Notes: generated from the letters alone by a model not told the origin. Positions 46,462 through 62,086 are shown, numbered from the stretch's first letter. The stretch: DNA of 64,000 nucleotides from an uncultured Dehalococcoidia bacterium (GCA_958296385.1 OY282494.1:415416-479415); one strand, 5' to 3'. Numbers and translations: made by a program.

Positions 46462-47262
46462 ATGACCGCCCAATCCGGTGACCACACCCGGACCGTCCGC
46501 GAGCAGTTCCGCATCCAGTCTGCTCAGTTTGAGCAGCAGGTCGGCGGCATCGGCAACCGCGCCATCGGCCCCTGGATTCTGGAAAACCTCCCCCTGTCCG
46601 GCGCAGAGTCCGTCCTTGACGTCGCTACCGGCACCGGATTGATGGCCCGCGATTTAGCCCCTCACGTCCGGCACGTCACCGGCATTGACGTCACCCCGGA
46701 GATGCTCCAACAGGCCCGCGACCAATCCGCTGCGGCCGGCCTGTCCAACGTCACTTTTGACGACGGCAACGCGGCGGCCCTCCCTTACGCCGACGACTAT
46801 TTTGACCTGGTAATCAGCCGCATCGCGGTGCATCACTTCGCCGACCCGGTGGTAGAGCTGTCCGAAATGCGCCGGGTCTGCAAGCCCGGCGGCAAAGTCG
46901 TAATTGTTGACATAACCGCCTCCGACGACCCCACCCAAGCCGACGCCCACAACCAACTGGAACGCCTGCGCGACCCATCCCATACCACCGCTCTCCCCCT
47001 GTCCGGCCTGACCGCCCTGGCCCAACGCTCCAATCTGGCCGTAGTCCACACCAGCGAAGCCGACGCCATCCGCGATTTGGACGAGTGGATGGACTTGACC
47101 GCCACGCCGCAGGATGTCCGGGAATACATTACCACGGCATTTGAGACGGATGCGGCCGGCGGCGCCTCCACGGGTATGCGGGCGCACCGCGTTGATGGCC
47201 GGTTCAAGTTCGTCCACCATTGGGCCGTGCTGGTCTGCGATACGGGCAAATCCGGCGGCTGA
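46462..47262 (+). CDS. class I SAM-dependent methyltransferase
   Basis: It has motif I VLDVATGTGLMARDLA, and FDLVISRIAVHHF. There is a 3-nt gap after the TPP enzyme gene. Confidence 0.75.
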   Translation: MTAQSGDHTRTVREQFRIQSAQFEQQVGGIGNRAIGPWILENLPLSGAESVLDVATGTGLMARDLAPHVRHVTGIDVTPEMLQQARDQSAAAGLSNVTFDDGNAAALPYADDYFDLVISRIAVHHFADPVVELSEMRRVCKPGGKVVIVDITASDDPTQADAHNQLERLRDPSHTTALPLSGLTALAQRSNLAVVHTSEADAIRDLDEWMDLTATPQDVREYITTAFETDAAGGASTGMRAHRVDGRFKFVHHWAVLVCDTGKSGG

Positions 47263-47302
47263 TTCCGCTGGCCCCGGCAATTCCTTGATAGCTCAATCAT
47301 CT

Positions 47303-48757
47303 ATGGCGCAATCATCCGATGCAGCCCCGGCCAACCGCCGCCGCATCTACCCTCTGAACCCCGCAGAGCTGACGGCAGAGCAGATAGCCGTAACCTTTGC
47401 GCTGACTTCCCGGCGCGCTGAGCCCTTCGACGAAATCGCCCGGGAAGTCAGCGCCGAGCGGGCCGCTGATTTCAACGAGCGGTGGGTCGTCGGCTACGGC
47501 CACGCCTCCGTTGCCGAACACGCCGCCCTGCATCTGGCCGTGGAGAACATCTCCCGCCTCGCCGGCGATGCTCTGGAGGACAACCGGCTGGCCTCTTATA
47601 CCGAGAAATCCTCCCGCTACCAGGTAATTGACCCCGAAAGTTTCTGGGTTCCCGATGAGCTGTCCCCGCATCCCGCCTTGCGCCGGGAATACGTAACCGC
47701 TTGCCGGGGCTTATTCCTCTGCTACGCCGCGTTGCTTGACGGCGTAACCGACCATCTGCAAACGCACCTGCCCCAAAGACCCGGCGAACCGGACGGAACC
47801 TACTCCCTGCGCCGGCGCCGTCTGGCTACCGACGCTTGCCGCGCCATCCTGCCGGCGGCAACCCTCACCAACGTCGGCCTCACCGCCAACGCCCGCACGC
47901 TGGAACACATCATCACCAAGCTGATGTCGTCCCCGCTGGCCGAGGAGCGCGATATTGGCCTGGAACTGCGCAATCAGGGCCGGGAAATCGCCCCCACGCT
48001 GGTCAAGTACGCCGATTACAACCCCTTTCTGGCCCAACGCCGCAGCCCGCAGCCGCCCCCACCAACCGATGCGCCCGCCGCAGCGCCGGCCGGTGTGCGT
48101 CTGCTGGATTACGACCGTGATGCCCCGCGCCGGCTGGCGGCGGCCCTGCTGTTCCGCAGCGGCGGCGATTACGCCCAGGCCCTGGCCACCGCCGACGCCA
48201 TGTCCGACGACCAGCGTTTGGGCGTCATCCACGCCGCCGTCAGCAGCATCGGCCCCCACGATGCGGCCCCCCGGGAGTTTGAGCTGGCCGCCTACACCTT
48301 TGAGTTCACCTTTGACTACGGCGCCCTCCGCGAGTTCCGCCGCCATCGGATGCAAACCTACTTGTCCCAACCCCTGACCGTCGCCCACGGCTATACCATC
48401 CCCCCGCTGGTGCGGCAGGCCGGAATGAGCGACGCGTTCGATGCCGCCGTGCGGATGTCCGAGCAGGTCTTTCGCCGGGTGTCGGACTTTGCCCCCGCCG
48501 CCGCGCAGTACCTGGTAACCCACGCCCACCATCAGCGCATCCTGTCGCGCCTGAGCCTGCGGGAGTGCTGCCACTTATTCAACCTGCGTTCCGCCCGCCA
48601 GGCCCACGAGTCCATCCGGCAGCCGGTACTGGAGGCGATGCGGCAGGCCGTTGCCGTGCAGCCCGAATTGTTCCGCTACCTGCGCCTGCGGGATGTTCCG
48701 GCCTGGTGGCCTTTCGTCCCTGGCGGCCTTTCGTCCGGTGAGCCCTTTGCCGGCTAA
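47303..48757 (+). CDS. tandem-duplicated ThyX-like (flavin-dependent thymidylate synthase family) protein
   Basis: Half 1 has GHASVAEHAALHLAVENISRLAGDALEDNRLASYTEKSSRY and ARTLEHII. Half 2 has REFELAAYTFEFTFDYGALREFRRHRMQTY and FNLRSARQAHESIRQ. The start was trimmed to ATG 47303. Confidence 0.65.
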   Translation: MAQSSDAAPANRRRIYPLNPAELTAEQIAVTFALTSRRAEPFDEIAREVSAERAADFNERWVVGYGHASVAEHAALHLAVENISRLAGDALEDNRLASYTEKSSRYQVIDPESFWVPDELSPHPALRREYVTACRGLFLCYAALLDGVTDHLQTHLPQRPGEPDGTYSLRRRRLATDACRAILPAATLTNVGLTANARTLEHIITKLMSSPLAEERDIGLELRNQGREIAPTLVKYADYNPFLAQRRSPQPPPPTDAPAAAPAGVRLLDYDRDAPRRLAAALLFRSGGDYAQALATADAMSDDQRLGVIHAAVSSIGPHDAAPREFELAAYTFEFTFDYGALREFRRHRMQTYLSQPLTVAHGYTIPPLVRQAGMSDAFDAAVRMSEQVFRRVSDFAPAAAQYLVTHAHHQRILSRLSLRECCHLFNLRSARQAHESIRQPVLEAMRQAVAVQPELFRYLRLRDVPAWWPFVPGGLSSGEPFAG

Positions 48758-48949: not shown

Positions 48950-50098
48950 TTAGCGCACTGGGTCCGGCGGCAGCGGCGGCCCGGCGATGATGCGCGCCGT
49001 CAGAAATTTTTTGCCGCTTGGCACTGTTGGCCCGTTCCGCTCGTCGGGAATTAGCGCCACTTCCCGGTAGTCAAAGACCGATTTGTTGGTTTCCAACGAC
49101 TGCACGCTGTTGCCGTCGTCCTCGTTCACCACTATCCGGCCCACCAGCGTTCCCTCCCCGCCGATTCCAAAGAGCATCACCCGGTAGGTATCGGTGGGCA
49201 TCCCCGACACCATCAGCACGGCGTGCTGCCCGCTGGGGTCAACCATCAGCACGCCCCTGGCCTCCGGTTCGGTGCCCATTGGCGACGTCATCGGCAGTTT
49301 CTCCGTTTCCGGCTGCGCGGCAAATATCGTAGCCTCCACCACGTCGGCCATTTCCTGCTTAACCAGCTCAACCGGCTCGGTTTCAAAGGAAACTCCGCCC
49401 GCGCTGGCGCTGGCAGTAGCGGCAAAATCGGCGCTGCCGTCCCGCCCGCCGCCAGCCCTCGCCCCAATAGACCGCACGGAAACCGCCGGCGCGGTGGCAG
49501 ATTGCGAACCGCCGGCCGTAGCCGCGCTGCCTCTGTCATCAACCGTCCCCGCTGTGCCGGCGGCGATGACGGCGTTGCGGGTGGCCATCCCTTCACTCTG
49601 AAACGCCTCCACCAGCGTTTCGGTAGTAGCCGCCGTGGACGCCGCAATCACCTGCTCGGTAGTAATCTGATTGGCGGTGGTTATCTGCTCAATCTCCCGC
49701 TGCTGCTGCGCGATGACGCCGACGGCGGCGGCCAGCAGCAGGCTCAGCGTTCCTATTGCAACCGGCGCTATCCAGCGGCGCAGTCGTCGCAGCGACCAGC
49801 GGGCGTCCGGCGGCGGCAGAGCGGCGCGTTGGGGAACAGCGCCGCCGGGGTTGGTGGCAGCCGACATTGCCCGCGCCTTCAGGCCGGGCGGCAGCAGCGT
49901 TTCGGGCGCGCCGCCAACCAGCCGGGCCGCCGTTTCCTGAAACCCCACCAGCACTTCCTGGCAGTGAAAGCACTGCAACACGTGCCGGGCAACATCCTGA
50001 TACTCCGGCCCGTCCAGCGCGTTCAGCGCAAAGGCGGCCAGCTCCTCCTCCGGATGTTCTGGCCGGTCGTTGCGGCTGCCGTAATTCTCAGGCCACAT
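48950..50098 (-). CDS. anti-sigma factor (zf-HC2 N-terminus, single TM, extracytoplasmic domain)
   Basis: It has HVLQCFHCQEVL and the TM segment WIAPVAIGTLSLLLAAAVGVIA. It overlaps the sigma gene by 11 nt. Confidence 0.75.
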   Translation of the reverse strand: MWPENYGSRNDRPEHPEEELAAFALNALDGPEYQDVARHVLQCFHCQEVLVGFQETAARLVGGAPETLLPPGLKARAMSAATNPGGAVPQRAALPPPDARWSLRRLRRWIAPVAIGTLSLLLAAAVGVIAQQQREIEQITTANQITTEQVIAASTAATTETLVEAFQSEGMATRNAVIAAGTAGTVDDRGSAATAGGSQSATAPAVSVRSIGARAGGGRDGSADFAATASASAGGVSFETEPVELVKQEMADVVEATIFAAQPETEKLPMTSPMGTEPEARGVLMVDPSGQHAVLMVSGMPTDTYRVMLFGIGGEGTLVGRIVVNEDDGNSVQSLETNKSVFDYREVALIPDERNGPTVPSGKKFLTARIIAGPPLPPDPVR

Positions 50099-50660
50099 AC
50101 TCTTCCAGCGCCGCCTTTAATTTTTGCATCCCCAGCCGCATCCGGGTTTTGACCGTGCCCAGCGGCTGATTGAGCATCGTTGCGATTTCCGATTGGCTGT
50201 ATCCGTGCCACGCCGACAGGTACAGCGGGCGGCTCTGCTCCGGCGGCAGTTCCGCCAGCGCCGCCCGCACCAGCTGCGCGTTGTAGCTCTGCTCGACTTG
50301 CTGCTCCACGCTGAGCGTAGCGTCAGGGATGCGATGCAGCACCTCCGCTTCGGCGGGTATGGTTTTGTCCGAGATGCGCCGGCGGGAGCGGTAGATGTCC
50401 ACAATCTTATGATGCGCTACCGACATCACCCACGTCCCCGGCGCCGCCATCTCCGGGCGGTAGCTCGCCGCCTTTTGCCAGATGTTGGCGAAAACATCCT
50501 GCACGGCATCCTCGGCCAGCGACGCGTCGCCCAGTATTGAAACCGCTAACGAGTAGATGCGCTGGGCGAACTTGTCATAAACGGTTTCCAACGCCGCCTC
50601 GTCGCCGCTGGCCACGTCAAATATCAGCTGGACATCCTCACCGCTGCGGTGGTCGTTCAC
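50088..50660 (-). CDS. ECF-type RNA polymerase sigma-70 factor
   Basis: It has region 2 (DAVQDVFANIWQKA) and the region 4 HTH (YSQSEIATMLNQPLGTVKTRMRLG). Confidence 0.85.
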   Translation of the reverse strand: MNDHRSGEDVQLIFDVASGDEAALETVYDKFAQRIYSLAVSILGDASLAEDAVQDVFANIWQKAASYRPEMAAPGTWVMSVAHHKIVDIYRSRRRISDKTIPAEAEVLHRIPDATLSVEQQVEQSYNAQLVRAALAELPPEQSRPLYLSAWHGYSQSEIATMLNQPLGTVKTRMRLGMQKLKAALEEYVA

Positions 50661-53115: not shown

Positions 53116-55107
53116 TCAGTCGTCGGCGGCAGCAGCGGCGGCAACCCCGGCGATGGCATCGTACTGCGCCCCGCCGTGGCCAACTACCGTCGCCACGTCC
53201 TCCGCCAGCAGATACCCCTCGGCAGCCAGAGCCTCGGCCGCTGCTTTGACGCGGGCCAGATATTCGCCCCGCGAGGCGTAGCGTTCCTCAATTGACGGCC
53301 TCGGGTCGTTAGCCGCCATACGCTCTGCCCTGGTGCCGGCAAAGGGTATGGCGCACCCCACCACCGTGCCGCCCGGAGCCAGCACCTGCCCCGCCCCGCC
53401 GATGTCGGCATGACGCACGTTCCAGCCGGCGTAGGTAGCCAGCGGCACCGACACGGCCGGCAGCCTGATGCCCCCCATCTCGTTGCCGTCCGCGTCCACC
53501 GCCGATACCAGCGACGGGTAGGCAGCGCCCACCAGCGGCGGTATTTTTGATGGCACGGCCCGGTCCGGCCCGAAGTTGAGCCGCCGGATTGCCTTAAGAT
53601 GCTCCGGGAACTCAACGCCCGGCAGGGCCCGGAATTGCCCGGCGAGGCTTTCCGCCGTAACGATGGTATGTTCGGCGTGGTTCGGATACCGATTCCCCGC
53701 CGGCGCCTGCCCATGGGTAACCCAATTGTCCAGATTCACCAGCGCGGCCCGCATCAACGGCCGATAATCTACGAAGTTCAGCGGCTGCGTACCCCGCGCC
53801 CCGGTGTCCGGGTTGGTATCCGAGATTGGCAGACTCGCCGGTGCGTGCTGCGTGCCGCAGAACAGCCAGGAGCGCACGTTGTCCGGCGGTTCCACGTCCG
53901 CCATACCGTCCCCGCTCAGATGCGCCAGCGCGCCGTGCCCGCCCCAATACTCGGACGACGTGTTGGTGTAGATTATTTTGGGCGCCAGCCCCCGCGCCGC
54001 CAGCCGGGTCAAGATGCCCTCGTCCCCCTCCGGGTCTAAGTCCAGGAACGGCGGCAGGTTGTTCACGCTGCGGTTAGACAGACTTGACGGCTGCCCGAAC
54101 CGCACGTTGAACTCCCCCATTTTGCCGCCGGCCACGTTGGGCAGCATCCCATCAAACACCACCCGCCCCGATTCGTCGGCGTTCAGCCCCAGGTGCAGCA
54201 TCTGCCGCAGGAACCGCCCGCTTTGACTGCGCCCGTAGGCATAGGCCCGTCCCACGGCCCCGGCCAGGGGATTGGCGCTGCCGTCGCTATCGGCCTTTGC
54301 GTACCGCAGCCAAGCCACCAGGTCGCGGGTTGCTAGCAATCCCAGCCCCACCACCGGAGCGTGGGATGTTTCGTACAGCACCCGGTACACCTTGCCCGCC
54401 TCAAACCCGCCGTCCATTATGATATGCGAATTGTCGGGAACCCGCCGCCCGTCAACCAGGCGCGCAAACGCCCACCGTTCCCGCGGAATCACCGTCTCCG
54501 GCCCATCCTCGTAATCCTGCACCGTCAACACGGAATCCCAGCTCTCCGGATGGTTGGTTGGATATGGCTGATGCTCCCGGTCCGATAGAAACTGCGTGTC
54601 GGTGTGTGCTATCGGCTGGAACGACACCACAATCCGGCCCGATACCGGCGAGCCGTCGCTGTTGCTGGCGTTGGGCGCGTTGCAGCGCAGCAGCCCCGGC
54701 GTGTTGGGCACGTCGTGCTGCCACCCGCACCATACCAGGCTGTACCCCTGCCGCATCAGAAAGCCGTTGCCCGGATGCGGTGCCGCGTCCGGCGGCCCGT
54801 CCGGCGCATCGTTGATATTCTTCAGCGCCAGTTCCTTGCCCCGGTTCACGACGTCAAGCAGCAGCCGCCCGTTGCCGTGGTCGTTGTCCACCGGCTTGAT
54901 GATGCGAATATCGGCGGAGAACTCCACTTTGCCCGCCCCGTTGCGCGGCGCCAGCCCAACGTCGGCCACGGCGATGTTCTCCGGATGCGACGGGTCAACC
55001 GCAAAGTAAGCCACCCCATCCAGCTGCTCGTACCCGCCCACGCTGCCGAAAGTCTGACCGCCGGCGAACGGGCGCCGCGCGGCGATGTCAAGTCGTGCCA
55101 GTCCCAT
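53116..55107 (-). CDS. large conserved hypothetical protein (663 aa; possibly an alpha/beta-hydrolase-like family)
   Basis: The ORF has ATG 55107 after GAGAGGTGGGA. No catalytic motif was confidently recognised. It lies 71 nt downstream of the CHAT-NTPase-TPR gene on the same strand. Confidence 0.5.
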   Translation of the reverse strand: MGLARLDIAARRPFAGGQTFGSVGGYEQLDGVAYFAVDPSHPENIAVADVGLAPRNGAGKVEFSADIRIIKPVDNDHGNGRLLLDVVNRGKELALKNINDAPDGPPDAAPHPGNGFLMRQGYSLVWCGWQHDVPNTPGLLRCNAPNASNSDGSPVSGRIVVSFQPIAHTDTQFLSDREHQPYPTNHPESWDSVLTVQDYEDGPETVIPRERWAFARLVDGRRVPDNSHIIMDGGFEAGKVYRVLYETSHAPVVGLGLLATRDLVAWLRYAKADSDGSANPLAGAVGRAYAYGRSQSGRFLRQMLHLGLNADESGRVVFDGMLPNVAGGKMGEFNVRFGQPSSLSNRSVNNLPPFLDLDPEGDEGILTRLAARGLAPKIIYTNTSSEYWGGHGALAHLSGDGMADVEPPDNVRSWLFCGTQHAPASLPISDTNPDTGARGTQPLNFVDYRPLMRAALVNLDNWVTHGQAPAGNRYPNHAEHTIVTAESLAGQFRALPGVEFPEHLKAIRRLNFGPDRAVPSKIPPLVGAAYPSLVSAVDADGNEMGGIRLPAVSVPLATYAGWNVRHADIGGAGQVLAPGGTVVGCAIPFAGTRAERMAANDPRPSIEERYASRGEYLARVKAAAEALAAEGYLLAEDVATVVGHGGAQYDAIAGVAAAAAADD

Positions 55108-55150: not shown

Positions 55151-55182
55151 ATGCGATTAGTTTCAGATGCGATTAGTTTCAG
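55151..55182. repeat. perfect 16-bp tandem duplication spanning the stop codon of the CHAT-NTPase-TPR gene
   Basis: ATGCGATTAGTTTCAG occurs at 55151-55166 and again at 55167-55182. Confidence 0.9.
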
Positions 55183-58100
55183 AGGATTTGACTGGTATCA
55201 ACGTCCAGGTCGGTCGGCGGTTCCGTGCCGATGTTGTCGTGCCACCACTGGCGAAACTCGTCGGCCCCCAGCTTTTCCTGCAACCGCCCCAGATGCGCCT
55301 TTACCTGCGTCATAATCGGCAGCTGATGGTCGGCGGCCAGCTGATACGTCCGTGCCACCCATTCCAGCGCGTCGGCCAGGTTGCCCCGTTCCTCTTCTAC
55401 CACCCCCAGCTGCCCGTAGGTGCGCGCCGACCGGATGACGTCCCGCGTGGCCTCAAAGGCTTGCCGGGCCTGGTCGTACCACTCTTGCGCCTTGTCCAGG
55501 TCGCCCTGCTCGTGATGCAAAACGCCCAGCTGACGGGCTTCGTCGCCCACCCCCCGCCGGTCGCCCAGCTGCTCCCGGTACTCCATCGCAATCGTCAGCC
55601 ATTCCTCCGCTTCCTCCGCTATCCCCCGCGCCTGCGCCAGCGTGCCCAGATGATGAAACTCCACCGCCATCTGCTCGGTCATTCCCATCCGGTCGCACAG
55701 CCCCAACGCCTGCTGATACCAGGATTGCGCCTCTTCAAACAGGTATTCCGAATGGTCAACCGTTCCCAGCGCGTGAAAGATATAAACCGCCGTTTCCTCA
55801 TCCCGGTTCTCCTCCACAATCTCCCGCGCCCGGTGATACCAGCTGCGCGCCTCGTCGTACTCAAACCGGAAATGACACGCCGAACCCAACGCCCGGAAAT
55901 CATTAACCATCTCTTCGTAATCCGGCAGCCGCTGGTGAATGTCCAGCGCCCGCGAGTACCATTCCTTTGCCGAACCGTACTGCCGCTGGTGATGCCGCAC
56001 TTGCCCGATTGCAAAGCAGGCGTCCGCAATAGATTCCTGGTCCTCCCCCCCATCGATGATTTCCAACCCTTTCTCCAGCCACTCCGAGGCCGTCTGATAC
56101 TGCCCCCGCCGGGTGGCAATCAATCCATTCTGATGATACACGGCGGCCGTGCGCGCGTCCGTCTCCCCGTCCGGCTGTTCCAGCAGGTAATCCAGCAGCT
56201 GCTGATTGAACCCGGCGGCCCGCTCCAGTTCCAGCAGTTCCACCGACTCCATAGCGTCGGTGCCCAGCAAATACTGCCAGAACTCGATGGCCCCGTTAGC
56301 CTCCGCCTCCGCCGCCGTATGCCCGATGACGTCCAGCAGTTGACCCCGCAGGCGGCGCAGTTCGGGAAAGCGCTTTTGCATCCGGTACACCTGCGCCAGC
56401 GGCTGAATCAGCAGTTGGGCGTTGTCCCACTGCCGGTTCTCCAGCGCCAGCCCCAGCGCCTGCGTCAGGTTGCCCTCCTCCGCCAGCACCGCCGTAACGC
56501 CCGTGTCCTGATTCTCGTACAGGCTTTCCATAAAGTAGTCGGCGGTATCCGCATAGACCCGCACGAACTCCAGCTCCAGCCGCCCGATGGCCTCCCGCGA
56601 CAGCTGCCGCCCCAGCTTGCGCCCCAGGAACCAGGGCACCGCCGGGTTAATCTGATACACGCTTGGCGAGATTGGCTCCACGAACCCGTCGGCCATCGCG
56701 TTGCGCAGCAGCGTGCGGCAGGCGCCCCAGCCCAAGTCCTCCCCGGTTGCCACGCTGTACACCCGTTCCTGCGTGATGTGGTTCAGCACGTCCAGCATAA
56801 CCCGCCGCTGGAACATTGACAGGAACGGCAGATGCGTGCGGCTGCGGTGCGACATCCGCGTGAAAGCGTACTCCATCGCCGCCGTCAATACCGGACTGCG
56901 CCCCGGTTCCGAGTCGGCGGTATCGTCGTTCAGCAGCCGCGTTATCTCGCTGACCGCCGCCGCCGCCGGCACGTCTTTCACCGGCGGAATCGCAACCTGC
57001 ATCGCCAGCGGGTGGCCGTCCAGCAGGTCAAGCAGGCCGGCAAAGTCGCCGTCGGCCCGCGACGCCGGCACCGCCCCTTTGTCCATCACCCGGCCCGCCA
57101 GCGCCGCGCGGTCGGCGGTAGCCAGCGGGTTCAGCGTCAGGGCCGCATGGGGCATGGTCAGCCAGCTTTCGTCGGCCCGGCGGCTCAGCAGCAGCGCCGC
57201 GCTGCCCGCTGGCCCAACGGTAACCTCATCCAGAAACGTCGCCAAGTCCGACAGTTCCCCATCGGCCAGCAGCCCCGGCGCGCCGTCCGGAAACCCGGCC
57301 ACGTTCTCGGCGTTGTCCCACACCAGCAGCGCGGCGTTCTCTTGCAGATATTGCGTCACCCACTGCCGCTGCTGCCCCGCCGGCAAGTCAGCAAAATCCA
57401 GCCCTGCCACCGCCGTGCCAATCTCGTGCACCACCCGCTCGATTCCCGCCGGATGCGACGCCTCAAACGCCGTGTAAAAAACGCCGCCCGGATAAGCGAT
57501 GCGCGCCGGCTTGAGAAACCAGCGGCACACCCCCAGCGCCAGCTCCGTCTTGCCGATTCCGGCATCCCCGGACAGCAGCGCAACGTTGTTCGCCGCCAGC
57601 GCTTTTTCCAGCTGGCGCAGTTCACCCTCCCGGCCCACCAGACCGAACTGGCCGGCCGCCGGTATCTGCAAGTCGTCGGTTGGCGCCTCCTCCGGATGTA
57701 TGACCGGCGGCGCCAGCGGGTCCGGTTCGTGTTCGGCGATGACAGCCGGCATAAACCCCCGCGATTGATACACCGCCGGCCCGTGCCAGTCCCAGCCTAC
57801 CCGCTTGCCGTTGACCGTCACCCGTTCCGGCGATTCCATCAGCGACCGCCGCAGCGCCGCCACCGCCGCCGCCACGGTATTGCCCCTGGCCAGGCCGGTG
57901 TAAAACGCGCGCACCGCCCCGCTCGCCGCATCCGGATGCAGCGGATACGGTATCAAAGCCACCTGCGCCACGCCGGCATCGCACAGACTTTGCGCCGCCG
58001 CCGCCCAGCTCCGCGAGTCGTTGCCCGCTGCGGCCCCCGCCGACAGCAGCGCAACGCTGACCCCGGCCCCGGCCAAGCTTTTGCCCACCTGCTCCGGCGC

Positions 58101-58952
58101 AACCGGCTCCACGCCGCCCCCGGCCGACTCCGCAAGAATGTCCCCGCTGGCGTCCAGCGTCACGCCGTCCAGGTGTGCGATGTGGTAGTGATTAGGCTTT
58201 CGCCGCAGCAGTTCGTCAAAGGCCGCCCAGGTAGCCGGCCGGGGATTGTCCAGCGACGCCTCGGAGTTCAGCCCCTCCAGCGCGGCAACCACGGCGTCCG
58301 CCAAACTGCCCCCGGCCACAACCCCGGCATCCAGCAGCGCCCCCGCTGACGGCGCCTCCCCGTCCAGAGGAGCCGGCGACAGCATCAGCACGTTCAGCGC
58401 GCTATCGGTGCGCTGCTCGCCGGCCGCATCCGCAACATCCTCGGATGACTGCCGTACCACGCCGCCAAAGGCCGCCGCGATATAGCCCAGGTTCGGCTCG
58501 TTCAGCAGTTCCCACGGCAGGGACAGAAACCCGGCATCCCCGCTGGCGATTGCCAGATTCCTTGGCCCGTCCTGCGCCAGCACCGCGTCCAGCTGTCCCC
58601 GTCCCTCCGAACCCGCCGCAAACACCGACTCAAAAAGCAGCCGCCCCAAATTGCGCAGCGCCGATTCAATCCCCTCCGCCCGCTCCAACTGTCCCAGCGG
58701 CGCCCGCGCGTATCCGTTGTGATACCAGTCCAGCGCCGCCCGTTCCTCCGGCCCCAAATTGACCCGGAACGCCGTCGGCGCCGCCAGCGTGCTGCCACCC
58801 ACTGCATCCGTAACCCGTAGTTGGACTTGACCCGAACCGGCCTTATCGAGAATAGTTAGCGTAGGAACGATGGACACTGTTGCACCTGCCGGCGTTGGGG
58901 TTGGGTTGGCGAATCCGGAAAGCCGTAAGCCCGCTACTGCGGCGATTGCCAA
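55179..58952 (-). CDS. CHAT domain / P-loop (STAND-like) NTPase / TPR-repeat protein
   Basis: CHAT landmarks are present (LSLPWELL, HYHIAHLDG, VALLSAG, SLCDAGVAQVALIPYPL, AFYTGLARG). The Walker A motif GDAGIGKT maps to nt 57546-57569, and LLVWDNAENV is Walker-B-like. The C-terminus carries degenerate TPRs. There is no ATG start; the candidates are TTG 58952 or GTG 58877. Confidence 0.75.
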   Translation of the reverse strand: MAIAAVAGLRLSGFANPTPTPAGATVSIVPTLTILDKAGSGQVQLRVTDAVGGSTLAAPTAFRVNLGPEERAALDWYHNGYARAPLGQLERAEGIESALRNLGRLLFESVFAAGSEGRGQLDAVLAQDGPRNLAIASGDAGFLSLPWELLNEPNLGYIAAAFGGVVRQSSEDVADAAGEQRTDSALNVLMLSPAPLDGEAPSAGALLDAGVVAGGSLADAVVAALEGLNSEASLDNPRPATWAAFDELLRRKPNHYHIAHLDGVTLDASGDILAESAGGGVEPVAPEQVGKSLAGAGVSVALLSAGAAAGNDSRSWAAAAQSLCDAGVAQVALIPYPLHPDAASGAVRAFYTGLARGNTVAAAVAALRRSLMESPERVTVNGKRVGWDWHGPAVYQSRGFMPAVIAEHEPDPLAPPVIHPEEAPTDDLQIPAAGQFGLVGREGELRQLEKALAANNVALLSGDAGIGKTELALGVCRWFLKPARIAYPGGVFYTAFEASHPAGIERVVHEIGTAVAGLDFADLPAGQQRQWVTQYLQENAALLVWDNAENVAGFPDGAPGLLADGELSDLATFLDEVTVGPAGSAALLLSRRADESWLTMPHAALTLNPLATADRAALAGRVMDKGAVPASRADGDFAGLLDLLDGHPLAMQVAIPPVKDVPAAAAVSEITRLLNDDTADSEPGRSPVLTAAMEYAFTRMSHRSRTHLPFLSMFQRRVMLDVLNHITQERVYSVATGEDLGWGACRTLLRNAMADGFVEPISPSVYQINPAVPWFLGRKLGRQLSREAIGRLELEFVRVYADTADYFMESLYENQDTGVTAVLAEEGNLTQALGLALENRQWDNAQLLIQPLAQVYRMQKRFPELRRLRGQLLDVIGHTAAEAEANGAIEFWQYLLGTDAMESVELLELERAAGFNQQLLDYLLEQPDGETDARTAAVYHQNGLIATRRGQYQTASEWLEKGLEIIDGGEDQESIADACFAIGQVRHHQRQYGSAKEWYSRALDIHQRLPDYEEMVNDFRALGSACHFRFEYDEARSWYHRAREIVEENRDEETAVYIFHALGTVDHSEYLFEEAQSWYQQALGLCDRMGMTEQMAVEFHHLGTLAQARGIAEEAEEWLTIAMEYREQLGDRRGVGDEARQLGVLHHEQGDLDKAQEWYDQARQAFEATRDVIRSARTYGQLGVVEEERGNLADALEWVARTYQLAADHQLPIMTQVKAHLGRLQEKLGADEFRQWWHDNIGTEPPTDLDVDTSQIL

Positions 58953-59095
58953 CGGGGTCGTCTTGCTACATTAATCAGCGTGCTTTACAATCACGGAGGT
59001 TCAATACGAACCGCCCAAATCCCGGTTATCAATCTGCGCCGCATTATACATCAATGCGCCGCCGGTGGCGTAACCCCGCTGTGATTCACCTAACT

Positions 59096-60037
59096 ATGCC
59101 TGCTGCCAACCAAATCCGCCGCTCCTGGCTCCTCGTACCCGCCTCCGCTGCCCCGCGCATCGCCAGCGCCCCAGCCTCCGGCGCCGACGTCATCATCCTT
59201 GACCTCGCCGAATTCGTCGCCGAGCCCAACAAGCCGGACGCCCGGGACGCCGTCCCCGCCGCTTTGGATTCCGTCAAAGCCGGCGGCGCCGAAGTGTTCG
59301 TCCGGATTGACCCCCAGCTGATGCTCGCCGACTTAAACGCCGCCATCCGGCCCGGCGTTGCCGGCGTAGTAGTCAGCCGGCTGGAAAGCGCCGCGCAGAT
59401 TGCCGAAGCCGCCGCCCTCATCGACCGGCTGGAAAGCCAGCGGGGGTTGCTGCCCAATTCCGTAGAAGTCGTCGCCTCATTGGAAACCGCCGCCGGCAAC
59501 CACAACGGCTTTGAGATTGCCACCGCCAGCCCCCGCGTAACCGCCCTGACCCTCGGCCGCGCCGACTTGGCAATGGACTTGCGCCCCGAACCCTCCGGCG
59601 AAATCCACCTGATGCAGTACCTGATGCAGCGGCTGATTACGCTGGCCGCCGCCACCGGCAAGCTCCCGCTCGGCGCCTGGTGGCGCGCCCCCGACCGGGG
59701 CTTGCTGGCCACCCCGGAGAACACCCTGGCCGCCGCCCAACGGGGCCGCGCCATCGGTTTCCGCGGCTCAATGTGCGTGCTGGACAATCAGGTTGCCCCC
59801 CTCAACGACGGCTTTACGCCCACCGCAGCCGAAGTAGCCGAGGCCGACGCCATCCAAAGCGCCTACGCCGCCGCCGTCCAATCCGGCGCCGCATCCGTAG
59901 TCCACGCCGGCGGCCGCGCGCTAACGCCCAACCTGGTCCGGCAGTACGCGCAGGTCTCGGCCCTGGCCGCCGCCTGCGCCATCCGCGAGGAGTTCAAGTC
60001 CGCCGCCTTGTCCGGCCGGCCCATTCCTCTGCCCTAG
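59096..60037 (+). CDS. CitE-like (HpcH/HpaI aldolase/citrate lyase beta family) protein, paralog 1
   Basis: It has IRRSWLLVPAS, DVIILDLAEFV, VVSRLESAAQI and VASLETAAG. The start was trimmed to ATG 59096. Confidence 0.7.
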   Translation: MPAANQIRRSWLLVPASAAPRIASAPASGADVIILDLAEFVAEPNKPDARDAVPAALDSVKAGGAEVFVRIDPQLMLADLNAAIRPGVAGVVVSRLESAAQIAEAAALIDRLESQRGLLPNSVEVVASLETAAGNHNGFEIATASPRVTALTLGRADLAMDLRPEPSGEIHLMQYLMQRLITLAAATGKLPLGAWWRAPDRGLLATPENTLAAAQRGRAIGFRGSMCVLDNQVAPLNDGFTPTAAEVAEADAIQSAYAAAVQSGAASVVHAGGRALTPNLVRQYAQVSALAAACAIREEFKSAALSGRPIPLP

Positions 60038-60103
60038 CCCGCTGGCCGGCCGTCCCATCCCCGCCCGCGTTTCCGTACCATCGTTTTTCAGGAGCTTTGC
60101 CCG

Positions 60104-61126
60104 ATGCCGCACCCGCACCGCCGCCTCAAGCGTTCCGGCCTCACCATGCCCATCGTCACTGACCGTTTCATCAGCAACGCGTGGCATCGCGGCTGCGACT
60201 TTATCAATATGGACTTGGAGGATTCGGTGCCGCCGGCACTCAAAGGCTACGCCCGCAGCCTGGTGCGCCGCAGCATCCCGGTGGTCAACAAAGGCGGCGC
60301 CGACGCCGTTTGCCGCATCAACCACGACTTGATGGAGGCCGACCTGGACGCCGTCATCTGGCCGGGAATGGTTCACGTCAACTACCCCAAAGCGGAGTAC
60401 GGCCACGAAATCCGGCGCATGGATGAAATCATCACCCGTCTGGAGCGTGAGCGGGGCATCCGTCCGGGCACCATCGCCATCGGCGCCAACATTGAAACCG
60501 CAGTAGGCGTTGCCAACGCTTACGAGATTGCCTCCGCCAGCCCCCGCGTCCGCGATTTCGGCGGCGCCTCCGGCTACGATATGTCCCGCGATTTGGGCGT
60601 TGAGATGTTCGTCGGCTTTGACCAGTTCGTCTATGGCAAGGGCGAAGTGGAACTCGCCGCCCGCGCCCTCAACCTGGAACCCCGCGCCGCCCCGTTCACC
60701 CCCAACATCACCGGCAGCGTCAGCGACCCCGACCGCGCCTTTGCCGAGGCCGACGCCGCCCGCCAGTGCGGTTTCCGCATCGGCGGCGGCCTCCATCCTT
60801 TCGTAGTAGAACCCCAAAATCGCGGCTTTACCCCCAACGACGCTGAGATTTCCGACGCCCATTGGGTGCTGGACGAATACCGCAAGCTGGCCGTATCCAA
60901 CGAAACCTGGGTGCAAATTGACACGCAAAGCCTGACGCCCGGCGACGGCCCCGGCCCGCTTGATTCCTCCGACAACCCCAACTTGCGCCACCGCGTCATT
61001 GACCGCTATGAAGCCGCCCGCGCCGCCGAACTGCTGGAGTGGGCCCGCCTGTGCGCCGACCGCGACCGCGAGAAAGACGAAGCCATCGCCCGCGTGCGCG
61101 CCGCCGCCGACGCCGACGCAACATAA
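60104..61126 (+). CDS. CitE-like (acyl-CoA lyase family) protein, paralog 2, with canonical DLED motif
   Basis: It has DFINMDLEDSVP, HVNYPKAEYGHEI and GANIETAVG. GGAG lies 9 nt upstream of the ATG. Confidence 0.7.
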   Translation: MPHPHRRLKRSGLTMPIVTDRFISNAWHRGCDFINMDLEDSVPPALKGYARSLVRRSIPVVNKGGADAVCRINHDLMEADLDAVIWPGMVHVNYPKAEYGHEIRRMDEIITRLERERGIRPGTIAIGANIETAVGVANAYEIASASPRVRDFGGASGYDMSRDLGVEMFVGFDQFVYGKGEVELAARALNLEPRAAPFTPNITGSVSDPDRAFAEADAARQCGFRIGGGLHPFVVEPQNRGFTPNDAEISDAHWVLDEYRKLAVSNETWVQIDTQSLTPGDGPGPLDSSDNPNLRHRVIDRYEAARAAELLEWARLCADRDREKDEAIARVRAAADADAT

Positions 61127-61156
61127 CGCTAACCTACCCCCTTGCGGTGCAATCCT

Positions 61157-62086
61157 ATGCTGATACGACGTTCCTTACTGATTATCCCCGCTAGCAACGC
61201 CGACGCTTTGGCAACGGCTTGGTCTCACGACGCCGACGCCGTTATCCTGGACATCCAGGCCGGCGTTCCGCCCTCCCAACTCGCCGCCGCCCGCGCGTCA
61301 CTCCCGGATTCCATCGCTGCCGCCGGCCAAGGCGGCGCCGACGTCCTGGTACGGGTCAACGCCCCCTACTGGCACGCCGACAGCAACGCGGCGGTTTGCC
61401 CCGCACTAACCGGCATCGTCCTCCCCGGCGCCGAATCCCCCCAGCAGGTAGCCGATGCGGATGCTCACCTCGGCAATCTGGAGCTGCAACGTGGCATCCC
61501 GGCCGGCCGTCTGGAGCTGGCCTTGTCCCTGGAAACGGCCGCCGGCGTCTGGCACATCCGCGAGCTAATGGCCGCCAGCTCCCGCATCAAGCAAGTCGCC
61601 ATTGACGAGGCCGCCCTCGCCGCCGCGCTTGGCATCGTCCAGAACCCCTCCCTTGACCCCTTCGTCTATGCCCGTGGCCGCTTGTGCATTGAAGCCACCG
61701 CTATCGGAGTACAGCCCGTCGCCGTTCTCGACCCGACGCGCCTGGGCGGGGACGAACTGTCCTACGACGATAAACTCCGGCTGGCCACCGACGCCCGCAA
61801 TCTCGGTTTCAAGGGCCTGGTCTGCGTTCACCCCCATTGGATTAGCGCGGTCAACGCCGCCTTCACGCCCACCGAGTCGCTGGTAGATTACTACGTGCAG
61901 GTTCGGGAAGTTTTCGCCCAGGCCCTGGCCGCCGGCACCGCCGCCGCCCCCTTCGCCGGCCGCATGATTGACGTCCCCGTTGACGAACGCGCCAAAGACG
62001 TACTGGCCCTGAGCGCCGCCTGCGCCGCCCGCGACGCCGCCAAGCAGGCCGCCCTGGCCAGCGCCGGCCGGCAAACCGGCCCGTAA
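61157..62086 (+). CDS. CitE-like protein, paralog 3
   Basis: It has IRRSLLIIPAS, DAVILDIQAGVP, VLPGAESPQQV and LSLETAAG. ATG 61157 was preferred over the track's TTG 61142. Confidence 0.7.
   Translation: MLIRRSLLIIPASNADALATAWSHDADAVILDIQAGVPPSQLAAARASLPDSIAAAGQGGADVLVRVNAPYWHADSNAAVCPALTGIVLPGAESPQQVADADAHLGNLELQRGIPAGRLELALSLETAAGVWHIRELMAASSRIKQVAIDEAALAAALGIVQNPSLDPFVYARGRLCIEATAIGVQPVAVLDPTRLGGDELSYDDKLRLATDARNLGFKGLVCVHPHWISAVNAAFTPTESLVDYYVQVREVFAQALAAGTAAAPFAGRMIDVPVDERAKDVLALSAACAARDAAKQAALASAGRQTGP

What the first reader, a model, noticed from the sequence alone, without database searches (positions are those of the whole stretch)
55179..58952. NLR/STAND-like giant protein: CHAT domain with Gly at the catalytic-Cys position, P-loop NTPase, and a C-terminal TPR array
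Seen in the sequence: residues about 130-375 carry CHAT-family landmarks in the usual order (LSLPWELL; HYHIAHLDG; VALLSAG; SLCDAGVAQVALIPYPL; AFYTGLARG...AALRRSL). Residues 462-469 are a Walker A motif (GDAGIGKT, nt 57546-57569), followed by a Walker-B-like LLVWDNAENV. The last roughly 400 residues are degenerate TPRs with recurring (A/S)xxW(Y/L)xxA motifs (AKEWYSRAL, ARSWYHRA, AQSWYQQAL, AEEWLTIAM, AQEWYDQA, ALEWVARTY). Established knowledge: an effector, a STAND NTPase and a repeat sensor make up the architecture of antiviral STAND (Avs) and bacterial NLR-like immune proteins, and CHAT is a caspase-like protease family with a His/Cys dyad (consensus about HxxxHG and vvLSAC). Inference: the Cys position here reads LLSAG and the His motif is out of register (HIAHLDG). 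The CHAT domain may therefore be a non-catalytic scaffold, implying a different output such as oligomerisation or recruitment of a partner. The gene has no ATG start (TTG 58952 or GTG 58877) and lies in a metabolic neighbourhood, not a recognisable defence island.
Basis: partly seen in the sequence, partly recalled or inferred. Interest (0 to 1): 0.72.

Follow-up and report, generated by a model that had tools for sequence, protein, structure and literature searches.

The report
Dead-protease CHAT–STAND–TPR switch of SAR202
This is a large NLR-like switch protein whose caspase-like CHAT domain has lost its whole active site, and it is a single-copy, vertically inherited core gene of SAR202-type Dehalococcoidia, not a mobile antiviral gene.

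Summary
The ORF (55179–58952, minus strand; true start GTG 58877, 1232 aa) and every quoted motif are real. Pfam, AlphaFold2 and Foldseek confirm three modules: a CHAT/caspase fold, a STAND NTPase (best structural matches Apaf-1, NRC2, MalT) and an array of 40-residue TPRs. Aligned with dyad-intact relatives (FDGHG…LNAC), the catalytic His is V264 and the Cys is G306. The Arg conserved after β1 in active relatives is also lost (A194). None of 78 species-level genomic copies has His or Cys at those columns. The NTPase motifs are invariant.

The Avs/immune reading is not supported:
- There are no Avs or NLR hits in PADLOC.
- The gene is single-copy in a fixed syntenic block (PrpD 65/65 loci, Abhydrolase_10 64/65, ECF σ 63/65).
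- It co-diverges with its neighbours (r = 0.94–0.97).
- Purifying selection is strongest on the TPR and WH-arm (ω ≈ 0.05), the reverse of the gradient in dyad-intact relatives.

The clade is monophyletic inside a large, mostly dyad-intact CHAT–STAND–TPR superfamily (112 of 150 nearest representatives keep His/Cys). The most likely function is a nucleotide-gated oligomerising switch or scaffold that senses a conserved endogenous ligand and has a non-catalytic output. The partner and ligand are unknown.

The parts
55179..58877 (-). Gene for the pseudo-CHAT-STAND-TPR protein (1232 aa from GTG 58877; stop at 55179-55181). The ORF is open back to TTG 58952 (1257 aa). Residue numbers in this report use the 1257-aa numbering.
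58581..58877 (-). N-terminal domain (aa 26-124): three short beta-strands plus three helices. It precedes CHAT in the whole superfamily. The Glu that is invariant in active relatives is Asn79 here.
   Evidence: AF2 model
57822..58580 (-). Pseudo-CHAT (caspase-like fold) domain, aa 125-377.
   Evidence: Pfam PF12770 33.6 bits. Foldseek hits: SAVED-CHAT 8TL0 3.7e-7, DdvA, separase, caspase-8, Craspase. omega about 0.2.
58161..58163 (-). Val264, occupying the catalytic-His column (GHG in active relatives).
58035..58037 (-). Gly306, occupying the catalytic-Cys column (NAC/EAC/SAC in active relatives).
58371..58373 (-). Ala194, at the post-beta1 Arg column that is 100% Arg in 84 dyad-intact relatives. 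By my own reading this is the position of the caspase S1-pocket Arg.
57078..57647 (-). STAND nucleotide-binding domain (aa about 436-625). Walker A GDAGIGKT 57546-57569, Walker B LLVWDNAENV 57300-57329, sensor-1 LLLSRR 57177-57194.
56238..57077 (-). ARC-like helical domain, winged helix and helical arm (aa 626-905). GxP motif GHPLAM 57000-57017. MHD-equivalent YQINP 56643-56657 (Asn769 where relatives have His). This is the most conserved segment (82% mean pairwise identity, omega 0.05).
55308..56165 (-). TPR array (aa about 930-1215), 40-residue period.
   Evidence: omega 0.05
55182..55211 (-). Family-specific acidic C-terminal tail DLDVDTSQIL-COOH.
   Evidence: present in 54/78 family members and in 0/16 dyad-intact relatives
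53116..55107 (-). Co-oriented downstream Abhydrolase_10 gene, 71 nt away with no terminator-like site in the gap. It is a conserved neighbour. A functional link is not shown.
   Evidence: 64/65 loci; r=0.97

Best explanation
The gene encodes a cytoplasmic tripartite STAND protein: an N-terminal CHAT (caspase-fold) domain, an NB-ARC/MalT-like nucleotide-binding oligomerisation module with winged helix and helical arm, and a C-terminal TPR array. It descends from a large family of catalytically intact CHAT-STAND-TPR proteins. In the common ancestor of a Dehalococcoidia (SAR202-type) clade, the protease active site was lost: the catalytic His, the catalytic Cys and the Arg conserved after beta1. 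The gene then became a fixed, single-copy, vertically inherited chromosomal gene. Those steps are shown. The following steps are inferred. The NTPase is still a working nucleotide switch. The highly conserved TPR and arm bind a conserved endogenous ligand or partner, not a fast-evolving viral protein. Ligand-dependent nucleotide exchange drives oligomerisation. The clustered pseudo-CHAT domains then act as a non-catalytic interaction platform that binds, sequesters or recruits a partner, as pseudo-caspases such as cFLIP do. It is therefore best read as a domesticated NLR-like signalling or scaffold protein, not an abortive-infection protease.
For: - Architecture: Pfam CHAT 33.6 bits and TPR_12 93 bits. 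AF2 model pLDDT 89.4, pTM 0.87. Foldseek hits to Apaf-1 3e-9, STAND-TPR 6MFV 7e-9, NRC2 4e-8 and MalT 7e-8. The CHAT-only model hits SAVED-CHAT, DdvA, separase and caspase-8.
- Dead site: the Cys column is Gly in 73/79 proteins and 67/78 genomic copies, and is never Cys. The His column is A/I/V/L and never His. The same columns read GHG and AC in relatives with the same architecture. All four positions that are 100% invariant in 84 active relatives are replaced.
- Live NTPase: K468 and D546 are invariant in 78/78 copies, and sensor-1 Arg and GxP are present.
- Retained, not decaying: omega is 0.20 for the pseudo-CHAT, 0.11 for the NOD and 0.05 for the WH-arm and TPR.
- Single origin: the clade is monophyletic with a dyad-intact sister group, and 112/150 nearest representatives keep His/Cys.
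- Vertical core gene: the best 80 genome hits are all Dehalococcoidia/Chloroflexota/SAR202. Synteny is PrpD 65/65, Abhydrolase_10 64/65, CoA ligase 61/65 and ECF sigma 63/65. Co-divergence with neighbours gives r = 0.94-0.97, and there are no tandem paralogs.
- Sensor frozen: mean pairwise identity is 0.76 for TPR and 0.82 for the arm against 0.51 for CHAT. Dyad-intact relatives show the opposite gradient, TPR 0.34-0.40 against CHAT 0.52-0.58.
Against: - No partner, ligand or oligomer has been observed, so the output mechanism is inference by analogy with STAND proteins and pseudo-caspases.
- ATP binding and hydrolysis are inferred from motifs only.
- In the window's own subclade the MHD-equivalent His is Asn (47/78 copies). 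This could mean altered or constitutive nucleotide-state control.
- Conserved synteny may reflect general genome collinearity in this clade and not functional linkage.
- A chromosomal, conserved position does not by itself exclude an immune role.
- The contrast set for the domain-conservation gradient is small (4 sequences).
- 'Core gene' is inferred from presence in many genomes. The fraction of SAR202 genomes that lack it was not measured.
Confidence: 0.6

Rival explanations
1. It is still an innate-immune NLR/Avs-like sensor. The TPR recognises a conserved phage or foreign protein. Oligomerisation of the dead CHAT domains signals through a separate helper or executor encoded elsewhere, or the protein acts as a sensor or decoy paired with an active CHAT-STAND.
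For: The tripartite architecture is the same as in antiviral STANDs, with structural similarity to Apaf-1 and plant NLRs. Relatives carry TIR and intact CHAT effectors typical of conflict systems (P0094/95). Avs sensors are known to target conserved viral proteins (my own knowledge). Some genomes have RM/TA fragments inserted in the same block.
Against: No PADLOC Avs/NLR model is hit. The gene is single-copy at a fixed locus with strict co-divergence with housekeeping neighbours. There is no conserved defence neighbour. The effector is inactive. The sensor is under the strongest purifying selection across an entire clade. No helper gene is linked.
Confidence: 0.2
2. It is a MalT/AfsR-like STAND regulator of the surrounding conserved gene string (Abhydrolase_10, luciferase-like monooxygenase, PrpD, ECF sigma and anti-sigma). 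It would sense a metabolite or peptide and control these genes indirectly, for example by binding the ECF sigma/anti-sigma pair or a transcription factor through the pseudo-CHAT. This is a specific version of the best explanation's output step.
For: TPR_MalT just passes its Pfam cut-off (45.9 vs 45 bits). MalT is among the top structural hits. The gene string is co-oriented and tightly packed, with no terminator-like site before Abhydrolase_10. The ECF sigma is co-oriented in 63/65 loci. A TPR-CHAT anti-sigma, DdvA, is a precedent for CHAT-sigma coupling (PMC11506125).
Against: No DNA-binding domain is detected. The sigma gene is about 5 kb away with unrelated genes between. The whole 20-kb block is collinear, so adjacency may be historical. 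DdvA has an intact dyad, is periplasmic and has no NTPase.
Confidence: 0.15
3. The CHAT domain is still a hydrolase that uses a re-invented active site, for example the family-specific Ser192 with the conserved His260 and Asp262.
For: The pseudo-CHAT is under purifying selection (omega 0.2). Ser192 is 94% conserved in the family and rare in active relatives. H260 and D262 are 96-100% conserved.
Against: H260 and D262 are equally conserved in dyad-intact relatives, so they are probably structural. There is no conserved Cys in the domain. All the positions invariant in active relatives are lost together. The domain is the least constrained part of the protein.
Confidence: 0.04
4. It is a decaying relic: a pseudogenised defence gene with no function.
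For: The active-site residues are lost.
Against: The reading frame is intact at about 1,250 aa in 76 of 78 genomes examined. omega is 0.11 overall and 0.05 in TPR and arm. Walker motifs are invariant.
Confidence: 0.01

Closest known systems
Dyad-intact bacterial CHAT-STAND-TPR proteins, annotated only as 'CHAT domain-containing protein' or 'tetratricopeptide repeat protein' (e.g. Acaryochloris WP_235108088.1; actinobacterial P0090-P0092)
   Same: Same domain order and length (about 1,200 aa). They share LPWEL, YHxxHxDG, the Walker A/B motifs with the following AGFP stretch, sensor-1 and GxP motifs. Identity is 25-34% over more than 90% of the non-TPR part. They form the sister group in the NJ tree.
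   Different: They keep the catalytic His, Cys, post-beta1 Arg and N-terminal Glu. They have 30-40 extra residues between the His and Cys strands. They lack the DLDVD C-terminal tail. They occur sporadically in unrelated contexts, sometimes as tandem paralogs. Their conservation gradient is reversed, with the TPR least conserved.
Antiviral STAND (Avs) and bacterial NLR-related (bNACHT) defence proteins
   Same: N-terminal effector position, central STAND NTPase and C-terminal repeat sensor. The expected mechanism is ligand-induced oligomerisation.
   Different: No match to PADLOC Avs or other NLR models. The effector is non-enzymatic. The gene is not in a defence island. It is vertically inherited and single-copy, and the sensor is highly conserved.
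Apaf-1 / CED-4 / plant NLR NB-ARC proteins and MalT
   Same: These are the best structural matches for the NOD-WH-arm module. Walker A/B, sensor-1 Arg and a GxP motif like the GLPL motif of NB-ARC are present. MalT-type TPR passes its cut-off.
   Different: The Pfam NB-ARC model does not match and NACHT only weakly (in one relative). There is no CARD, TIR, CC or HTH output domain. The MHD His is Asn in this protein.
Stand-alone or CRISPR-linked CHAT proteases: SAVED-CHAT (8TL0), Craspase TPR-CHAT/Csx29, DdvA, separase
   Same: CHAT/caspase fold. Association of CHAT with TPR repeats.
   Different: Those are active proteases with a His/Cys dyad (PMC11506125). They have no STAND NTPase, their TPR is N-terminal to CHAT, and they are activated by cyclic oligonucleotide, RNA or an unknown signal.
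Pseudo-caspases such as cFLIP(L)
   Same: Caspase-fold domain without a catalytic Cys, retained under selection. It is presumed to work by protein-protein interaction on an oligomeric platform. This is an analogy for how it may work.
   Different: No sequence relationship beyond the fold. No heterodimer partner is known here. cFLIP is recruited through DEDs and is not fused to an NTPase.

Membership tests
CHAT domain (Pfam PF12770, caspase-hemoglobinase fold) | Profile HMM score above the gathering cut-off | tested here: met
   33.6 bits against a cut-off of 24, aa 125-377
CHAT domain (Pfam PF12770, caspase-hemoglobinase fold) | Caspase-like alpha/beta fold | tested here: met
   AF2 pLDDT 83.9. 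Foldseek: SAVED-CHAT 3.7e-7, DdvA 2e-5, separase 1e-4, caspase-8 2e-3
CHAT domain (Pfam PF12770, caspase-hemoglobinase fold) | Catalytic His-Cys dyad (HG ... AC) | tested here: not met
   V264 and G306 in the window. 0/78 genomic copies have His or Cys at these columns
CHAT domain (Pfam PF12770, caspase-hemoglobinase fold) | Conserved Arg after beta1 (S1-pocket position in caspases) | tested here: not met
   100% Arg in 84 active relatives. S/T/M/A in the family, A194 here
STAND NTPase | Walker A GxxxxGK[ST] and Walker B hhhhD | tested here: met
   GDAGIGKT and LLVWD. K468 and D546 are invariant in 78/78 copies
STAND NTPase | Sensor-1 Arg and GxP motif of the helical (ARC1-like) domain | tested here: met
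   LLLSRR 587-592 and GHPLAM 646-651, conserved with relatives
STAND NTPase | Winged-helix domain with a conserved His (MHD-equivalent) | tested here: inconclusive
   The WH is modelled. The motif is YQINP here: Asn in 47/78 copies and His in 31/78, while most dyad-intact relatives inspected have His
STAND NTPase | Structural similarity of NOD-WH-arm to known STANDs | tested here: met
   Apaf-1 3e-9, 6MFV 7e-9, NRC2 4e-8, MalT 7e-8, ahead of ORC/Cdc6
STAND NTPase | Match to a curated STAND sequence model (NB-ARC, NACHT, nSTAND, AAA_16) above cut-off | tested here: not met
   AAA_16 27.0 against 32.6 and nSTAND3 19.6 against 27.2, both P-loop region only. No NB-ARC hit
STAND NTPase | Nucleotide-dependent oligomerisation | not testable with these tools
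   Needs biochemistry or cryo-EM
Avs (antiviral STAND) / bacterial NLR-like defence | Match to curated defence-system models | tested here: not met
   PADLOC returns only a generic TPR model, plus a P-loop-only PDC-S73 hit at E=0.02
Avs (antiviral STAND) / bacterial NLR-like defence | Enzymatic or pore-forming N-terminal effector | tested here: not met
   The CHAT active site is abolished
Avs (antiviral STAND) / bacterial NLR-like defence | Accessory, patchy distribution or defence-island context | tested here: not met
   Fixed synteny, r = 0.94-0.97 co-divergence with neighbours, single copy
Avs (antiviral STAND) / bacterial NLR-like defence | Protection against phage | not testable with these tools
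   Needs an experiment. No cultured host was found in this work
Type III-E Craspase TPR-CHAT (Csx29) | TPR N-terminal to an active CHAT, encoded next to Cas7-11/CRISPR | tested here: not met
   The order here is CHAT-NTPase-TPR. No cas genes were seen among the annotated genes flanking the gene in the window or in 5 homolog loci
MalT/AfsR-type STAND transcription regulators | DNA-binding output domain (LuxR HTH or SARP) | tested here: not met
   No HTH or SARP hit in Pfam or NCBIfam. The AfsR and TPR_MalT matches cover only the TPR part

The most novel reading that the evidence does not exclude
An immune-type CHAT-STAND-TPR receptor was domesticated in the SAR202 lineage into a housekeeping signalling hub. 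Its caspase-like domain became a pseudo-protease that binds a substrate-like peptide without cleaving it. That peptide might be the protein's own family-specific DLDVD-COOH tail, or a partner protein. Together with the derived MHD His-to-Asn change, this would make a new mode of NLR-like regulation in bacteria: a bacterial counterpart of cFLIP-type pseudo-caspase signalling on an apoptosome-like platform.
Probability: 0.25. Interest if true: 0.6.

Novelty: new variant of a known kind. Interest (0 to 1): 0.4.

Why it matters
Bacterial NLR-like STAND proteins are currently discussed almost entirely as mobile, fast-evolving antiviral suicide switches. This family shows the opposite path. One branch of a CHAT-protease STAND family lost its protease chemistry but kept its nucleotide switch. 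Its sensor then came under very tight constraint, and the gene became a stable chromosomal gene throughout an abundant but uncultured marine and sponge-associated lineage (SAR202 Dehalococcoidia). If confirmed, it is a clean natural example of exaptation of an immune-type receptor into a non-immune role, and of a prokaryotic pseudo-caspase. It also warns that annotation pipelines calling effector-STAND-repeat proteins 'defence' from architecture alone will produce false positives. It does not open a long-standing question, and the mechanism remains inferential.

Tried and rejected
- Sequence search of the full protein against PDB found only TPR proteins.
- A CHAT-only profile against PDB sequences recovered just SAVED-CHAT 8TL0 at E = 0.5. 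That is too weak alone and was used only as a consistency check.
- NCBIfam gave only partial TPR-region hits far below the cut-offs.
- PADLOC gave nothing specific for the window protein or for eight active relatives.
- The promoter/terminator scan was at chance level and was used only to note that no terminator-like site lies in the 71-nt gap.
- Literature searches for inactive or degenerate CHAT domains in bacterial STANDs, and for SAR202 plus CHAT/TPR, found no description of this family.
- The first MAFFT run timed out and was repeated with faster settings.
- Considered and rejected: that H257 or H260 is a shifted catalytic His (they are conserved in dyad-intact relatives as well); that the gene is a decaying relic (dN/dS); membership in Craspase TPR-CHAT (wrong domain order, no CRISPR); that the TTG at 58952 is the start (homolog N-termini support GTG 58877).
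- Not possible: looking up contexts of the true sister-group proteins (P0102, P0103), because only proteins returned by the search for homologous proteins can be looked up.

Full report
**1. Observation**

The minus-strand ORF 55179–58952 (1257 aa from TTG) exists. This includes Walker A GDAGIGKT at nt 57546–57569. The (A/S)xxW(Y/L)xxA motifs recur with an exact 40-residue period from 995 to 1195.

The real start is GTG 58877, giving 1232 aa. The identical database protein P0001 starts there, homolog N-termini (MxxxPSLxIxD) align with it, and AGGTG lies 8–12 nt upstream. Residue numbers below use the 1257-aa numbering.

**2. Domain anatomy**

- Pfam places CHAT (PF12770) at aa 125–377 with 33.6 bits against a cut-off of 24. 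TPR_12 scores 93 bits over about 930–1210, and TPR_MalT sits just at its cut-off.
- The P-loop region gives only sub-threshold AAA_16 and nSTAND3 hits.
- An AlphaFold2 model of aa 26–925, built on a 46-sequence alignment, is confident (pLDDT 89.4, pTM 0.87).
- Its best PDB matches are STAND proteins: Apaf-1 (3e-9), the *Pyrococcus* STAND-TPR protein 6MFV, plant NRC2 and MalT. All rank ahead of ORC/Cdc6.
- STAND hallmarks are present: Walker A, Walker B (LLVWD, followed by NxEN), sensor-1 LLLSRR, GxP GHPLAM, and a winged helix with an MHD-equivalent YQI(H/N)P.
- A separate model of the CHAT module (pLDDT 83.9) matches the SAVED-CHAT filament 8TL0 (3.7e-7), DdvA, separases, caspase-8 and Craspase TPR-CHAT.

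The effector–STAND–repeat architecture is therefore real.

**3. The protease site is gone**

Distant homologs with the same architecture (P0090–92, P0094–96; 23–27% identity) read YHVVHFDGHG and LNAC/LEAC/LSAC. The window protein reads YHIAHLDGVT and LLSAG at the same columns.

- The catalytic His column is V264 and the Cys column is G306.
- H257, H260, D262 and G263 are residues shared with active CHATs. They are not a shifted dyad.
- In 79 full-length family proteins the Cys column is G73/A3/D1/R1, with two sequences carrying other residues that are not Cys.
- In 78 genomic copies from species-representative genomes, the His column is A/I/V/L/M/Q and the Cys column is G/A/T/S or a gap. No copy has His or Cys.
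- Compared with 84 dyad-intact relatives, all four positions that are 100% invariant in the active proteins are replaced in this family. These are an N-terminal Glu, the Arg just after β1, the catalytic His and the catalytic Cys. By my own knowledge, that Arg sits at the position of the caspase S1-pocket Arg.
- No new conserved Cys or His cluster appears in the domain.
- The family also lacks 30–40 residues between the His and Cys strands.

The weak PDB sequence hit to 8TL0 places its HFIGHG and VLNAC on the same profile columns. DdvA, craspase and separase all use this dyad (PMC11506125).

**4. The NTPase is intact and the whole protein is under selection**

- K468, T469 and D546 are invariant.
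- Nei–Gojobori dN/dS on 60 genome pairs with dS of roughly 0.15–1.0 gives these median ω values:

| Segment | ω |
|---|---|
| N-terminus | 0.20 |
| Pseudo-CHAT | 0.20 |
| NOD | 0.11 |
| WH-arm | 0.05 |
| TPR | 0.05 |

- Mean pairwise identity is lowest in CHAT (0.51) and highest in the arm (0.82) and TPR (0.76).
- In four dyad-intact actinobacterial relatives the gradient is reversed: CHAT 0.52–0.58 and NOD 0.59–0.63, against arm 0.41–0.49 and TPR 0.34–0.40. This is a small contrast set.

**5. Distribution and context**

- The homolog search returned 96 proteins. About 85 are 46–73% identical, roughly 1,250 aa, from Chloroflexota/Dehalococcoidia MAGs, and often on Mb-size contigs.
- A scan of one genome per GTDB species gave 228 tblastn-confirmed matches. 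The best 80 (47–73% identity) are all Dehalococcoidia, Chloroflexota or 'SAR202 cluster' MAGs, and many are from sponges.
- Gene neighbourhoods at 100, 70, 63, 51 and 49% identity are collinear. On one side lie a TPP enzyme, an ADP-forming acyl-CoA ligase, PNPOx and sometimes three HpcH/CitE-like genes. On the other lie Abhydrolase_10, sometimes a luciferase-like monooxygenase, PrpD, an ECF σ with its anti-σ, and ThyX.
- Counts in the 65 loci with full 10-kb flanks:

| Neighbour | Loci |
|---|---|
| PrpD | 65 |
| Abhydrolase_10 | 64 |
| ECF σ (co-oriented) | 63 |
| CoA ligase | 61 |
| ThyX | 55 |

- Pairwise identity of this protein correlates with that of PrpD (r = 0.94, 71 genomes) and Abhydrolase_10 (r = 0.97, 73 genomes). 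No locus has a tandem paralog, and the window has one copy.
- No defence gene is a conserved neighbour. PADLOC gives only a generic TPR hit.
- Dyad-intact relatives sit in unrelated contexts. One has a tandem paralog and a DUF6247 gene. One is a TIR fusion. One is inserted between pyrF and gmk.

**6. Place in the superfamily**

An exhaustive HMMER search with aa 120–790 found 2,313 cluster representatives at E ≤ 1e-3, 1,073 at E ≤ 1e-10 and 261 at E ≤ 1e-30. Many are about 1,200 aa with the match starting near residue 105.

- Of the 150 best, 112 have His/Cys at the dyad columns. The exceptions are this family's own representatives, truncated sequences, and five sporadic losses: P0140, P0141, P0147, P0179 and P0229.
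- In an NJ tree the family is monophyletic. Its sister group is dyad-intact (P0102, P0103, P0106, P0121) and includes an *Acaryochloris* 'CHAT domain-containing protein'.
- Active relatives match only domain-level PADLOC models (BovA CHAT part, SAVED_CHAT, TIR), not Avs.

**7. Interpretation**

Shown:
- The architecture.
- Complete loss of the protease catalytic residues.
- Retention of the NTPase motifs.
- Purifying selection on every domain.
- A single origin of the loss.
- Vertical, single-copy, syntenic inheritance.
- A sensor end that is conserved, not diversifying.

Inferred: the protein is a nucleotide-gated, ligand-dependent oligomerising switch whose output is non-catalytic (binding, sequestration or recruitment through the pseudo-CHAT). 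It senses a conserved endogenous molecule.

The Avs-like immune reading cannot be excluded without experiments. It does, however, fail each membership feature that could be tested here: the curated defence models, an enzymatic effector, and an accessory or island context.

A regulatory link to the co-oriented downstream genes or the ECF σ/anti-σ pair is possible but unsupported beyond adjacency. A re-invented hydrolase site (S192/H260/D262) is unlikely. A decaying pseudogene is excluded.

**8. Novelty**

I found no description of this family, or of a catalytically dead CHAT fused to a STAND NTPase, in the searchable literature. Databases call it 'tetratricopeptide repeat protein'. It is a new variant (a pseudo-enzyme, domesticated branch) of a known kind (CHAT–STAND–TPR proteins), not a new category. 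Interest is moderate.

Noticed in passing
window 55182-55211 (-), last 10 residues of the protein: Family-specific acidic C-terminal tail P-x-D-L-(D/E)-V-D-(T/A)-S-(E/Q)-I-L-COOH directly after the TPR array. It is present in 54/78 family members across both subclades and absent from all 16 dyad-intact relatives inspected. It resembles both a TPR-docking C-terminal peptide (EEVD-type) and a caspase DxxD motif. Its function is unknown.
   Followed up: partly
window 56646-56648 (-), Asn769 in YQINP: The MHD-equivalent His of the STAND winged helix is Asn in the window's subclade (47/78 genomic copies). It is His in the ~50%-identity subclade (31/78) and in most dyad-intact relatives inspected. 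In plant NLRs and Apaf-1 this His stabilises the ADP-bound off state (my own knowledge), so the switch may be regulated differently here.
   Followed up: partly
window 58880-62086 (+): Three tandem, divergently transcribed HpcH/HpaI (CitE-like aldolase/lyase) paralogs lie immediately upstream of the gene. The triplet is present in 39/65 related loci and absent in the ~50%-identity subclade.
   Followed up: partly
window 48950-50660 (-): An ECF sigma factor (190 aa) overlaps the start of a 382-aa anti-sigma. By my own inspection of the sequence, the anti-sigma has an HxxxCxxC zinc-binding motif and one hydrophobic, probably transmembrane, segment. The pair is co-oriented with the CHAT-STAND-TPR gene, and the sigma is conserved in 63/65 loci. 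The anti-sigma evolves fast (detected in only 25/65 by tblastn).
   Followed up: partly
window 47114-48757 (+): The ThyX ORF is unusually long (547 aa; 474-486 aa in related loci) and gives two matched stretches to the Thy1 Pfam model, which suggests a duplicated ThyX domain.
   Followed up: no
window 1-64000: GC skew is negative in every 2-kb bin across the whole 64-kb window (-0.03 to -0.26) at 60-68% GC. There is no switch point, so there is no origin or terminus in the window.
   Followed up: no
L005 2667-6940; L004 3897-4151 and 15936-16472: In some related genomes, small defence or mobile-type genes are inserted into the otherwise conserved block: two N6_N4 methyltransferases plus a ResIII helicase, a MazE antitoxin, and an HSDR_N fragment. 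They are not conserved and not adjacent to the gene in most loci.
   Followed up: no
L007 10001-13582 and 14538-18197: Two tandem dyad-intact CHAT-STAND-TPR paralogs (1193 and 1219 aa; 65-78% identical by domain apart from a 47%-identical N-terminal domain) sit next to a DUF6247 gene in a metagenomic contig. This contrasts with the single-copy SAR202 gene.
   Followed up: partly
proteins P0140, P0141, P0147, P0179, P0229: There are sporadic dyad losses elsewhere in the superfamily (P/P, R/V, L/S, L/A, H/S at the His/Cys columns). P0147 and P0179 fall in the wider NJ clade that also contains the SAR202 family, so not all need be independent events. Pseudo-CHAT STANDs may have arisen more than once.
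   Followed up: no
protein P0068: An 807-aa homolog (60% identical) is deposited as 'hypothetical protein GBAR_LOCUS3647 [Geodia barretti]', a sponge. It is almost certainly symbiont (Chloroflexota) sequence in a eukaryotic assembly.
   Followed up: no
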